Below, piece by piece: positions 22,401 to 25,400 of a DNA stretch of 64,000 bases. A program made the position numbers. The DNA is from Roseibacillus sp. (lineage in GTDB: Bacteria; Verrucomicrobiota; Verrucomicrobiia; Verrucomicrobiales; Akkermansiaceae). The stretch's first letter is position 1. Every line of letters starts with the position of its first letter. Location of the stretch: NCBI GenBank assembly GCA_965242925.1, contig CBDEUM010000038.1, forward strand, positions 64,001-128,000, in the 5' to 3' direction.

Positions 22401-25400
22401 GCGGATTTTCTCGAGGAGGTCCTCGCGGTCAGAGCGCAGGGCGGAGGAGGCACCCAGCTGAAGGGCCAGTTCGAGTCGTTCGTCGGCCAGGTCAATGGCG
22501 ATGATGTTGGTGCAACCAGCCCGCCTGAGGGCCTGCACTACGAGGAGACCGATAAGGCCGGCGCCCACCACCACCGCGGATTCTCCCTCCGTGATCCTGA
22601 CTCGGTTGACGGCGTGGAGGGCCACCGAGACCGGTTCGGCAAAGGCGGCTTCCTCGAAGGGAATCTCATCGGGAATGCGGTGGCAGATACGAGCCGGTAC
22701 GAGGACAAAGTCGGCAAAGGCACCCTGCCGTCGGAAGTCGGGGGTGGAGACCCCGAGGACCTCCCGGTCCTCGCAGAGATTGACGTGTCCCGACTGGCAG
22801 TAGTGGCATTGGCCACAGTAGATCGTGCTGTCGAAGGTGACCCGGTCCCCCCCGGACCAGCCGGTGACCCCGGAGCCCCAGCCCTCCACCACACCACTCG
22901 CCTCGTGGCCCATCACAAGAGGCGGGATGCGCCGACCGCTGCTCCCGTCCATGCCGTGGATGTCGCTTCCGCAGATCCCGCAGGCCCGGACCGCCACCAG
23001 GAGGTCATCGGGTCCCGGTTCGGGGATGGGCATCTCCACCAGGTCAAAGGTGGAGGCAGTGATCAGTTCGAGGGCTTTCATAGGAGCGCGGGCGGCAGTC
23101 ACTCACCCCGGAAATCGTAACAGATGATGCGTGGCGGAGCCCGGGTGAGCAAGTCGGGTTCGTTCTGGGAGATGTAGAGCAGTCCCTTGTGGAGGGTGGG
23201 GAGGGTCCAGCTGGAGCGGGCGGCAAAGAGGCGGACCTTCTGGAGGATTTCCGCGCCCTTGGGAGTGACCTTCAGTTCGGCCAGCACGCCGTCCTCCCCC
23301 AGGCAGAAGACCCGTCCGTCGGCCTGCAGGAGACTGCCGCGGAAGAGCCCGTGGGTGCGTCCGGCCTCCTGCCATTGCATGTCCTCTTCCCAGAGGATCT
23401 TGCCGGTGGCGGCATGGGCACACTTGAACTGGGTGTCCGGGATATTGCGTCCGGCGAAACCGTAGAGATGACCATCGATCTGGAGGGGCATCATCCAGTG
23501 CATGCCGAACCAGCGTTCCTTCCACACCACCTTCGACTTGAGGTTCTTGTCATACTCGAGAACTACCCCACCCACTCCATAGCAGTCACCGAGGTAGATG
23601 CGCCTGTCGCTGAGGATGAGGGGAGAGGAGGCCAGAACGGATTCGTGTTTGTCGGCCCGCCAGGGAAAGCGGTCGTAGACCTTGCCGGACTTGACATCGA
23701 TGACGAGAAGGCCGCCGTGTGGCGGACGGCTTTCGCCCGCGGCGGCCACCACCGCGCAGTCGACACCCTGCAGTTTGGTGATGGTGGGGGAGGCGTAGCT
23801 TGCGCCCCACGAATCCTTCACTTCCCAGAGGGTGCTGCCGTCCTTCACGGAGAGGGCTGCCACACAGACACCCGGTTCCTCCCCGGCCGCCCGGCCGCCT
23901 ACGTTGAGGATTATGCGGTCCTGCCAGACGGGACTGGGACTTGGCCCGTAACCGAAGAAGTAGGTGGGAATATTGTAATCTTTCTGCAGGTTACGCTTCC
24001 AGAGGACGGCTCCTGTCTCCAAGTCGAGACAGTGGAACATCCCGGTGATCCCGGTGACATAGACCCGTCCCTGATGCACTACTGGACTGGAGCGGGGTCC
24101 GGGACTGAAATTGTAGCGGTCGCGGTAGGTGACGGGATACTTCACGCGCCAGTGACGCTTGCCGGTGTCCGGATCAAGGCAGTCGATGGCCTCCTCCCCT
24201 GTGCCGGTGAGCGTGCTGTGATTGAGGCGATGGAAGTAGATCAGTTTTCCCCCGGCAAGGAGGGGGCTGGAATACCCCTCACCGGTTTCCAGTTCCCAGA
24301 CTTTCCTGGGTCCGCCCGCCGGCCATTTGCTCAGGAGCTTGGTTTCCCTGGAGGTGGCGTTGTGACGGTCTCCCAGGAAACGGGGCCAGTCCTCGACCAC
24401 CGCTCCCCCGGCGAGGGGCTTGGGGGCGGTATGGAAGGTCAGTTTCAGTTCCTGACCGGGACCGGGAAGCGTGCTGAGAAGAAGGACAAGCGAGGCGACG
24501 AGGATGGTTGGATTCATGGCGATTCGCTTGCGGTGAGGGTCCCACGATGGAAATACGGCGTCCAGACGTAATGAGGGGTCGCAGGGAAACTGTTGTTTCC
24601 TGATGAGGATTGGCTTGATTTTCGCTCGTTGCGCCCCTAAGCCTCCCGCCCACTGTGAAGGAAACCTCCTCATGCTCGGGTGGCGGAATTGGTAGACGCG
24701 CTAGATTAAGGATCTAGTGGGGTAATACCCGTGGGGGTTCGAGTCCCCCCTCGAGCACTTCCTTTTTTACAGGGCCAATCGGCCCTGGAGCGGTTATAGG
24801 AGCCGGGAGGAGAAAGAGGCTATTGCCCTTATACTACCCCTAAACGGCGGCTATACAGCCACAGAAAACCCCCGGAGCGCGGCGGGAAAAATCAATGGCA
24901 CCGTTGCCCCCTGCGCCTGGAGCGTGCTAGGAGTCGCGGTGCTATGAAGATACTCGTCCTGCTGTTTGCCGCGCTACTGGTCGCGGGATGCGGTGAGAAG
25001 GAGCAACCCAAGGAGCAGGAAAAATCGGAGTCAAATCCGAAGGAGGAACCGAGTCCCGAGGCGAAGGCAGAGCCCAAACCGGAATCTGCGCCAGAATCGA
25101 GGGAACTTCCTCCGCTTCCCGAGACCGTGACCGCGGAATTCATCATGGGTCTGTGGGCCAAGCCGCATGACGGGACAGAGGTCATGGAGGAGTTGAAGGA
25201 TTTTGCACTCAAGCCGGGTATCTGGAAGGTCGTACGCAATATCGGTCCCAGCAAGGAAGAGCAGGTTCAACGCATCGAAGCCTCCGCCACATTGAAGTCG
25301 GTCGACCGGCGCTTTGTAGCGCAGGAATTTTCCCATGATGCCGGGGTCCAGTATTCGGTGATAACCTATGATTACGAAACGGAGAGCTATCGTTGGTGGG

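What a model noticed while it worked through the whole genome (the two positions that open the first line are those of the whole stretch)
24674..24758. tRNA-Leu(AAG) replaces tRNA-Leu(GAG) as the only CUY decoder, a Verrucomicrobiales-wide G34-to-A34 switch
The only tRNA found for the leucine codons CUU/CUC has the anticodon AAG, not the GAG that bacteria normally use, although CUC is the commonest leucine codon of the genome. I read this as a second, independent bacterial origin (besides Lactobacillales) of an inosine-34 tRNA-Leu made by TadA, fixed early in Verrucomicrobiales including the Akkermansia family. It would widen the known substrate range of bacterial TadA outside Firmicutes and matters for codon-usage models and heterologous expression in this clade.
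Evidence so far: rna.tsv and call 141: five tRNA-Leu genes (UAG, UAA, CAA, CAG, AAG), none GAG; call 134: canonical 85-nt cloverleaf; TadA equivalog g01706. Call 141: Leu codons CTC 54,822, CTG 48,041, CTT 18,858, TTG 10,783, CTA 1,843, TTA 1,532. Calls 142,143: in 30 other genomes of the order the orthologous tRNA (E<1e-18) was found in 15 and reads AAG in all 15 (families f1 5, f3 4, f6 4, f7 1, f28 1); the further hits in those loci are tRNA-Leu(CAG); 15 genomes gave no match at that threshold. Calls 135,136: of 30 loci taken from 40 genomes across the phylum the best-matching tRNA reads AAG in 6 (own; Akkermansiaceae G021; family f10 G084, G095, G101, G092), GAG in 18 (16 of other classes, 2 of other fam [...]
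(Added by a program. Inside this text positions count along the whole contig: contig position 64,001 is position 1 of the stretch shown here. "Call 12" and the like, gene names such as g00115 and contig names such as C1 are that model's own, and its searches are not shown. The text may have been shortened before it was handed on; [...] marks where a part breaks off. The agent that wrote the report below was given it as the finding of a first reader that could run no searches.)

Follow-up and report, generated by a model that had tools for sequence, protein, structure and literature searches.

The report
A34 leucine tRNA with matching TadA change
This bacterium reads over half of its leucine codons with one tRNA whose anticodon starts with A instead of the usual G, probably after editing of that A to inosine, and the editing enzyme of its relatives carries one amino-acid change that always goes with this tRNA.

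Summary
The tRNA-Leu(AAG) gene at window 24674-24758 (+) is real. It is the only CUU/CUC decoder found in this 90%-complete genome by ARAGORN and Infernal; no GAG gene was found.

The switch is not order-wide. Of 121 sampled genomes of the order, 85 carry AAG, 32 carry GAG, 4 gave no match, and none has both. On an RpoC tree the AAG genomes are not one clade.

It is not a second bacterial origin. A truncated scan of public genomes returned 119 tRNA-Leu(AAG) genes with titles from about ten phyla, and this scan has noted such tRNAs before on other DNA.

Editing to inosine by TadA remains inferred. Three new observations support it:
- The AAG tRNA keeps the body of the GAG tRNA, but its anticodon arm now equals that of tRNA-Arg(ACG), the known TadA substrate, except at nucleotide 35.
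- One TadA position, equivalent to E. coli R152 at the nucleotide-35 pocket, is Ala in 37 of 37 AAG genomes and Arg/Lys/Gln/Val in 20 of 20 GAG genomes.
- CUC is the top leucine codon, also in highly expressed genes.

Against it, RNA-library contigs read A at position 34; this is inconclusive.

Verdict: a new member of a known kind, with a testable specificity switch.

The parts
24674..24758 (+). tRNA-Leu(AAG) gene, type II (long variable arm). The mature 3' end is probably the discriminator A at 24757; CCA is not encoded.
   Evidence: ARAGORN. Rfam RF00005 at 55.3 bits, E 3.4e-11. Sequence read.
24701..24717 (+). Anticodon arm: stem CUAGA/UCUAG and loop U32-U33-A34-A35-G36-G37-A38. Apart from nucleotide 35, the loop and the two closing pairs are identical to those of the genome's tRNA-Arg(ACG).
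   Evidence: One search gives the own Leu-AAG arm as CTAGA TT[AAG]GA TCTAG and the own Arg-ACG arm as CCTGA TT[ACG]GA TCAGG. The same G30-A31 / Y-U-A-A-G-G-A / U39-C40 is seen in every arm printed for AAG genomes of the order (84 genomes; the 85th, G051, was seen only to G37).
24708..24710 (+). Anticodon AAG. A34 at 24708 is the proposed site of deamination to inosine.
   Evidence: No RNA evidence of editing: contigs of the RNA libraries laid on it read A here.

Best explanation
The gene encodes the functional leucine tRNA that decodes CUU and CUC, about 55% of all leucine codons of this genome.

It is the orthologue of the ordinary bacterial tRNA-Leu(GAG). Its body was kept, but its anticodon arm was rebuilt: G34 became A, G38 became A, the 31-39 pair became A-U, and position 32 is mostly C in relatives. 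The arm now copies that of tRNA-Arg(ACG), the natural substrate of the deaminase TadA, except at nucleotide 35.

TadA most likely converts A34 to inosine, giving anticodon IAG, which pairs with C, U and A. In the lineages that carry this tRNA, TadA has Ala where E. coli has R152. That residue is proposed to narrow the pocket for nucleotide 35, so the change probably makes room for A35 besides C35.

Shown here: the gene, its uniqueness in the genome, its distribution, the arm mimicry, the intact TadA and the covariation.

Inferred: the deamination itself and the role of the Ala.
For: 1. Sole decoder. There is no tRNA-Leu(GAG) in the assembly by ARAGORN or Infernal. None of the 121 genomes of the order has both types.

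2. Demand for C-reading. CTC is 40% and CTT 15% of leucine codons. In tuf, nusG, rplKAJL and rpoBC the counts are CTC 138, CTG 119, CTT 47, CTA 3, TTG 12 and TTA 2, of 321.

3. Orthology with the GAG tRNA. With positions 27-43 removed, the own tRNA is 97% identical to the GAG tRNA of G043 and 89% to that of G058. It is at most 86% identical to any CAG or TAG tRNA.

4. Arm mimicry.
- The arms printed for the AAG genomes read GA/YUAAGGA/UC: 84 genomes in full, and G051 only up to G37.
- All 32 GAG genomes read UUGAGGG.
- tRNA-Arg(ACG) reads GA/YUACG(G/A)A/UC in all 65 matches, from 61 of 121 genomes.
- The own Leu and Arg loops differ only at nucleotide 35.
- The loop fits the S. pyogenes TadA consensus YUAMGRA (PMC11472039, passages).

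5. TadA.
- The own gene scores 162.8 bits against a cut-off of 150 and has the HAE and PCPMC motifs.
- TadA was found in 60 of 60 relatives searched.
- Exactly one alignment column separates the groups. Own A185 is Ala in 37 of 37 AAG genomes and R13/K4/Q2/V1 in 20 of 20 GAG genomes.
- It aligns with the first Arg after Met in E. coli FFRMRRQE, that is R152.
- PMC10586758 (passages) says R26 and R152 make the C35 pocket of E. coli TadA smaller and may explain why it accepts no other base there.

6. Precedent. tRNA-Leu(AAG) is fully edited in S. pyogenes by its own TadA but not by E. coli TadA (PMC11472039). It is also edited in O. oeni (PMC8072771) and in S. mutans (PMC13249217).
Against: No RNA evidence of inosine. 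Contigs of three RNA libraries that cover position 24708 read A, and no A>G was listed there (X1 record 4, X5 records 18 and 22, X8 record 25). Contigs drop minor variants, several of these run past the mature ends (so DNA or precursor), and DNA may be present in such libraries. This is therefore weak evidence.

The Ala is not a general requirement. In five other AAG-bearing lineages the same column is L, R, R, L and K, for Herbinix, Streptococcus oralis, a Synergistales genome, Prochlorococcus and Actinomarina.

The covariation rests on only 3 phylogenetically independent pairs. All go the same way, but the sign test gives p = 0.25.

Unmodified A34 tRNAs exist, such as O. oeni Thr and Ser. 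An A34 mutant tRNA-Pro of Salmonella read CCC almost as well as G34 (PMC3711424, passages).
Confidence: 0.75

Rival explanations
1. A34 stays unmodified. The tRNA reads CUU by Watson-Crick pairing and CUC by an A:C wobble, perhaps helped by tRNA-Leu(UAG) reading several CUN codons.
For: RNA-library contigs read A at position 34. O. oeni keeps A34 unmodified in tRNA-Thr and tRNA-Ser (PMC8072771). A Salmonella tRNA-Pro(AGG) mutant read CCC nearly as well as G34 (PMC3711424). In the public scan, 14 of 119 tRNA-Leu(AAG) genes have a GAG-like loop UUAAGGG that does not resemble a TadA substrate.
Against: It does not explain why the arm was rebuilt into a copy of the tRNA-Arg(ACG) arm in all 85 AAG genomes. 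It does not explain why one TadA residue at the nucleotide-35 pocket changes with it in 57 of 57 genomes. CUC, not CUU, is the preferred codon in highly expressed genes. An orthogonal AAG tRNA in E. coli decoded CUU at 4.3% and CUC at 1.5% (PMC11066159).
Confidence: 0.17
2. The lack of a GAG tRNA is an artefact of the incomplete assembly (90%); a normal tRNA-Leu(GAG) exists and the AAG gene is an extra or decaying copy.
For: Completeness is 89.9%, and one tRNA (Asn) is cut by a contig end.
Against: Of 121 genomes of the order, most over 90% complete and several in one to three contigs, 85 have AAG and none of them has a GAG match. In the own family, 29 of the 30 best loci read AAG, and 28 of 30 sampled genomes (own included) have AAG while none has GAG. 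The gene scores as a normal tRNA and is conserved.
Confidence: 0.03
3. The Ala/AAG association is only shared ancestry. The AAG lineages are in truth one clade (the RpoC tree being wrong), and the Ala is a neutral marker of that clade.
For: There are only 3 independent pairs. TadA's own tree is too weak to decide: starred branches force only 1 change. Ala is absent from the five other AAG lineages tested.
Against: An AU test on RpoC rejects one AAG clade at p = 0.0009, though the group was named after the tree was seen. Family f3 holds both states, and f5 (AAG) groups with f4 (GAG) in both the RpoC and TadA trees. Of all TadA columns, only this one separates the groups, and it is the one proposed to shape the nucleotide-35 pocket.
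Confidence: 0.25

Closest known systems
tRNA-Leu(AAG), edited to IAG by TadA, in Lactobacillales (Oenococcus oeni, Streptococcus pyogenes, S. mutans)
   Same: It is a bacterial type II tRNA-Leu with A34 that replaces the GAG tRNA; no family there has both (PMC13249217). The loop is YUAAGGA, and a tRNA-Leu(UAG) is kept beside it. TadA is the only candidate enzyme.
   Different: The phylum is different and the genome is GC-rich (60%), with CUC as the top codon rather than UUA/CUU. Here the Leu and Arg loops differ only at nucleotide 35; in S. pyogenes they differ at 35 and 37. TadA here carries Ala at the R152 site, whereas S. oralis has Arg. Editing is shown there and only inferred here.
tRNA-Arg(ACG), edited to ICG, the canonical TadA substrate
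   Same: It has the same anticodon loop and the same two closing base pairs in this genome, and presumably the same enzyme.
   Different: Nucleotide 35 is A instead of C. The tRNA body is type II and the amino acid is different.
Eukaryotic tRNA-Leu(IAG) made by ADAT2/ADAT3
   Same: I34 replaces G34 as the CUY decoder.
   Different: The eukaryotic enzyme is a heterodimer with lenient sequence specificity (PMC11472039). Here the enzyme is a homodimeric TadA, and the substrate appears to have been fitted to it.
Unmodified A34 tRNAs (O. oeni tRNA-Thr and tRNA-Ser; Mycoplasma tRNA-Thr(AGU))
   Same: A34 is encoded in a four-codon box.
   Different: Those are not TadA substrates. Here the arm copies a TadA substrate and TadA co-varies with it.

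Membership tests
Bacterial type II tRNA-Leu | Cloverleaf with a long variable arm, scoring above the tRNA model threshold | tested here: met
   RF00005 at 55.3 bits against 29, with a 12-nt insertion at the variable arm. ARAGORN calls it Leu.
Bacterial type II tRNA-Leu | Discriminator A73 (the role of A73 in LeuRS identity is recalled, not from a call) | tested here: met
   The acceptor 3' strand CUCGAGC is followed by A at 24757.
TadA substrate (I34 tRNA) | U33-A34-(C/A)35-G36 core within the loop consensus YUAMGRA defined for S. pyogenes TadA | tested here: met
   The own loop is UUAAGGA. The consensus comes from PMC11472039. In the order, the loop is YUAAGGA in the 84 AAG genomes whose arm was printed in full.
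TadA substrate (I34 tRNA) | An intact TadA in the same genome | tested here: met
   NF008113 at 162.8 bits against 150, at G000:C24:50462-50920. HAE and PCPMC motifs are present. Pfam MafB19-deam and dCMP_cyt_deam_1 match.
TadA substrate (I34 tRNA) | A34 is read as G in cDNA of the mature tRNA (inosine present) | tested here: inconclusive
   Contigs of three RNA libraries read A at 24708. They are contigs, some run beyond the mature ends, and none is shown to derive from mature tRNA.
Order-wide (Verrucomicrobiales-wide) trait | Present in all families of the order | tested here: not met
   f4 has GAG in 27 of 28 genomes, f2 in 1 of 1, and f3 in 4 of 28.

The most novel reading that the evidence does not exclude
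In this order, a tRNA and its modification enzyme switch together and repeatedly. The CUY tRNA-Leu alternates between a GAG form and an AAG form whose arm mimics tRNA-Arg(ACG). Each time, TadA alternates between Arg/Lys/Gln and Ala at the R152-equivalent site of the nucleotide-35 pocket. This would be a natural one-residue specificity switch that lets a bacterial TadA accept a second substrate. It could be tested directly by swapping the residue, and it bears on how I34 decoding expanded and on engineered TadA base editors.
Probability: 0.4. Interest if true: 0.7.

Novelty: new member of a known kind. Interest (0 to 1): 0.55.

Why it matters
Records titled Akkermansia, Akkermansiaceae, Prosthecobacter and Roseibacillus carry this tRNA type. 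The trait therefore probably covers a much-studied gut commensal and many environmental relatives.

If the tRNA is edited, several things follow:
- TadA becomes needed for more than half of all leucine codons.
- Codon-usage and tRNA-adaptation models that assume G34 or unmodified A34 are wrong for these genomes.
- E. coli TadA may fail to edit such a tRNA, as it fails on the S. pyogenes tRNA-Leu(AAG). This matters for heterologous expression.
- mRNA editing might widen to UAAG sites, as it does in S. pyogenes.

The paired tRNA and TadA states within one order offer a compact system to test what sets TadA specificity at nucleotide 35.

More generally, tRNA-Leu(AAG) genes are far more widespread in bacteria than the papers I could read state.

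Tried and rejected
- Synteny, to decide between in-place change and a new gene. With 1.5-kb flanks, only same-genus loci, and two of the three f5 loci, share neighbours; there was nothing between AAG and GAG loci. Uninformative.
- Covariation of position 32 between Leu(AAG) and Arg(ACG). There is no strict match: for example, three f3 genomes have U32 in Arg and C32 in Leu.
- Ala at the R152 site as a universal mark of AAG lineages. Rejected: 0 of 5 other lineages have it.
- The R26-equivalent TadA column. By eye it does not separate the groups.
- A second column (own residue 155, in the His-Pro loop). It is never His in 37 AAG genomes and is His in 12 of 20 GAG genomes. This is not a clean split.
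- First RpoC tree. It was wrong because the longest ORF was not RpoC in five loci; it was redone after a BLAST choice of ORFs.
- One search found nothing because I miscounted one N in the pattern. Corrected.
- My first AAG and GAG patterns missed families f5 and part of f4, which have other D-loop variants. This was found by BLAST and ARAGORN on five genomes.
- RNA runs. Parts of the stretch without cover, and the small shares of words in runs that I did not lay, say nothing.
- Literature. No paper held reports this tRNA in Akkermansia or Verrucomicrobia. PMC6103674 and Mol Biol Evol msy245 are not held, and the supplement of PMC13249217 (Fig. S1D) cannot be read. Any of these may list the clade.
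Full report
**The gene**

The window holds one tRNA, tRNA-Leu(AAG), at 24674-24758 on the + strand (ARAGORN). 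Rfam's tRNA model matches 24674-24757 at 55.3 bits against a gathering score of 29, with all helices paired and a long variable arm.

Read from the sequence, the anticodon AAG lies at 24708-24710 and the discriminator A at 24757. CCA is not encoded. The gene sits between a BamB-like beta-propeller gene on the minus strand and a leucine-rich-repeat gene on the plus strand.

**The tRNA set and the codons**

The assembly has 4.58 Mb in 42 contigs and is 89.9% complete. ARAGORN lists 46 tRNAs. The leucine tRNAs are AAG, CAA, CAG, TAA and TAG, one each, and none is GAG; tRNA-Arg(ACG) is present. Infernal finds 43 tRNAs and no further leucine-like gene. Its one extra hit is tRNA-Asn cut by a contig end.

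- CTC 50,356 (40%)
- CTG 43,199 (34%)
- CTT 18,610 (15%)
- TTG 10,194
- CTA 1,882
- TTA 1,578

In tuf, nusG, rplK, rplA, rplJ, rplL, rpoB and rpoC the counts are CTC 138, CTG 119, CTT 47, CTA 3, TTG 12 and TTA 2, of 321. The tRNA therefore has to read a C-ending codon efficiently.

**Distribution in the relatives**

- Own family (41 genomes): the best BLAST hit was fetched for 30 loci, and 29 read AAG. The other one is a CAG tRNA.
- Order: my first patterns missed D-loop variants. BLAST and ARAGORN on five genomes showed this.
- Order, with a wider pattern on 121 genomes, own included: 116 match, each with one type. Adding G051 gives the table below.
- No genome has both types.
- Other orders of the class: 31 of 122 genomes match, and all 31 read GAG. 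The other 91 did not match the pattern, so nothing is known of them.

| State | Genomes | By family |
|---|---|---|
| AAG | 85 | f1 28 of 30; f3 24 of 28; f5 28 of 28; f6 3 of 4; f7 1 of 1; f8 1 of 1 |
| GAG | 32 | f2 1 of 1; f3 4 of 28 (genera g33, g40); f4 27 of 28 |
| No match | 4 | G002, G092, G134, G060 |

GAG is thus the outside state, and the switch is confined to part of the order. It is not order-wide.

**Number of changes**

I built an RpoC tree of 29 genomes (1,379 columns, LG+G4). It places f2 (GAG) first. One clade then holds f8, f6 and f1, all AAG. A second clade has GAG and AAG lineages interleaved, with f5 (AAG) inside f4 (GAG).

The states need 4 changes, and well-supported branches force at least 3. 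An AU test rejects a single AAG clade at p = 0.0009. Two caveats apply: the group was named after I saw the tree, and this is one gene. I cannot tell repeated gains from one gain with losses, or from a period with both genes followed by sorting.

**What changed in the tRNA**

With positions 27-43 removed, the own tRNA is 97% identical to the GAG tRNA of G043 and 89% to that of G058. It is at most 86% identical to any CAG or TAG tRNA. Acceptor stem and D arm are shared. The AAG gene is therefore the GAG orthologue with a new anticodon arm.

- The arms printed for the AAG genomes read G30-A31 / Y-U-A-A-G-G-A / U39-C40. This is seen in full in 84 genomes; G051 was seen only up to G37.
- All 32 GAG arms read U-U-G-A-G-G-G, with U or C at position 31 and G at position 39.
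- No intermediate arm was seen in these 117 genomes.
- tRNA-Arg(ACG) of the order reads G30-A31 / Y-U-A-C-G-(G/A)-A / U39-C40 in all 65 matches. These come from 61 of 121 genomes; families f4 and f5 mostly failed the pattern. The arm is the same in AAG and GAG lineages.
- In the own genome the two loops are UUAAGGA and UUACGGA.

The new arm is thus a copy of the existing TadA substrate except at nucleotide 35. It also fits the consensus YUAMGRA found for S. pyogenes TadA (PMC11472039, passages).

**TadA**

The own genome has one TadA, at G000:C24:50462-50920. It scores 162.8 bits on NF008113 against a cut-off of 150 and carries the HAE and PCPMC motifs. TadA was found in 60 of 60 relatives searched.

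In the alignment of 57 genomes of known tRNA state, exactly one column separates the groups. Own A185 is Ala in 37 of 37 AAG genomes and Arg (13), Lys (4), Gln (2) or Val (1) in 20 of 20 GAG genomes. The four genomes without a tRNA match follow their families: Ala in G002, G092 and G060, and Lys in G134.

The column aligns with the first Arg after Met in E. coli FFRMRRQE, which is R152 by the numbering used in PMC10586758. That review (passages) says the following:
- S. aureus TadA has no base-specific contact to C35.
- R26 and R152 make the C35 pocket of E. coli TadA smaller, and may explain why it accepts no other base there.
- The change R152P coincided with loss of sequence specificity in base editors.

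A small residue at this site in just the lineages that need A35 is what co-evolution of enzyme and substrate would give.

The limits of this evidence are three:
- Only 3 phylogenetically independent pairs exist. All go the same way, but the sign test gives p = 0.25.
- TadA's own tree is too weak to count changes.
- In five AAG-bearing genomes of other phyla the column is L, R, R, L and K. Ala is therefore a local solution, not a rule.

**RNA**

Sixteen public runs hold part of the stretch, and all are kept as contigs. I laid three RNA libraries and one run of unrecorded kind on it. Contigs that cover 24708 read A: X1 record 4, X5 records 18 and 22, and X8 record 25. No A>G was listed there.

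Some of these contigs run beyond the mature ends, so they are DNA or precursor. Contigs also drop minor variants. This gives no support for editing and counts weakly against it.

**Wider occurrence**

Seventeen titles are verrucomicrobial: Akkermansia, Akkermansiaceae, Prosthecobacter, Roseibacillus, Verrucomicrobiales, and one titled Opitutales.

The remaining titles include:
- Streptococcus, Lactococcus, Lactobacillaceae and Vagococcus
- many Clostridia
- Prochlorococcus
- Actinomarina and Acidimicrobiia
- Alpha-, Gamma- and Deltaproteobacteria
- Planctomycetota, Synergistota, Sumerlaeia, Cloacimonadota and Vampirovibrionales

The loop is YUAAGGA in 103 of 119 and the GAG-like UUAAGGG in 14.

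Earlier notes of this scan report the same kind of tRNA in Polyangiales, Clostridia, CPR bacteria and Alphaproteobacteria. My scan agrees with these notes for three of the groups.

**Literature**

Bacterial I34 in tRNA-Leu is described as rare. It is shown for O. oeni, S. pyogenes and S. mutans (PMC8266599, PMC8072771, PMC11472039 and PMC13249217; passages).

PMC13249217 says that almost all bacterial tRNA-Leu(AAG) genes of GtRNAdb lie in Bacilli, and it adds Mycoplasma and Prochlorococcus. PMC8007984 (passages) surveyed phyla that do not include Verrucomicrobia. PMC6063277 (passages) does not mention the clade.

Eight searches found no paper on this tRNA in Akkermansia or Verrucomicrobia. The two Rafels-Ybern surveys and the supplement of PMC13249217 could not be seen.

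**Verdict**

The observation in the window is right. The claims 'order-wide' and 'second origin' are wrong. Editing by TadA is likely (about 0.75) but not shown.

The finding is a new member of a known kind. Its added value is the rebuilt arm and the single co-varying TadA residue, which make the specificity question directly testable.

Noticed in passing
G000:C31:66750-70681 (outside the window): rpoB is read in two overlapping frames, of 938 and 440 aa. This is either a frameshift or an assembly error in this draft genome.
   Followed up: no
G000:C29:191404-191499 and G000:C13:251059-251136 (outside the window): ARAGORN calls a 96-nt tRNA-Arg(TCG) and a second tRNA-Val(GAC) that Infernal does not find. 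They are probably false calls.
   Followed up: partly
window 24757-24790: The own genus does not encode CCA on this tRNA, while most relatives do. Behind the gene come a run of six T and then a hairpin, CAGGGCC-AAU-CGGCCCUG.
   Followed up: no
G045:C1:1910085-1910955 and G045:C1:2556912-2557116: One genome of family f6 has two copies of tRNA-Leu(AAG) about 830 bases apart, and two copies of tRNA-Arg(ACG) 165 bases apart.
   Followed up: no
L063 and 13 other loci: Fourteen of 119 public tRNA-Leu(AAG) genes keep the GAG-type loop UUAAGGG, with a U-G pair at 31-39 in L063, the one arm printed. One of them is titled Verrucomicrobiota. They look like plain G34-to-A mutants and may stay unedited.
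   Followed up: partly
TadA alignment, own residue 155 (G000:C24): A second TadA position, in the loop before the conserved LNH, is never His in 37 AAG genomes but is His in 12 of 20 GAG genomes.
   Followed up: partly
G000:C30:304340-304433 (outside the window): A tRNA-Sec (TCA) gene is present, so the organism probably uses selenocysteine.
   Followed up: no
window 24920-25001: In the laid runs, depth rises sharply over 24920-25001, at the start of the leucine-rich-repeat gene; the run of unrecorded kind reaches 800 there. This suggests a sequence shared by many organisms or copies.
   Followed up: no
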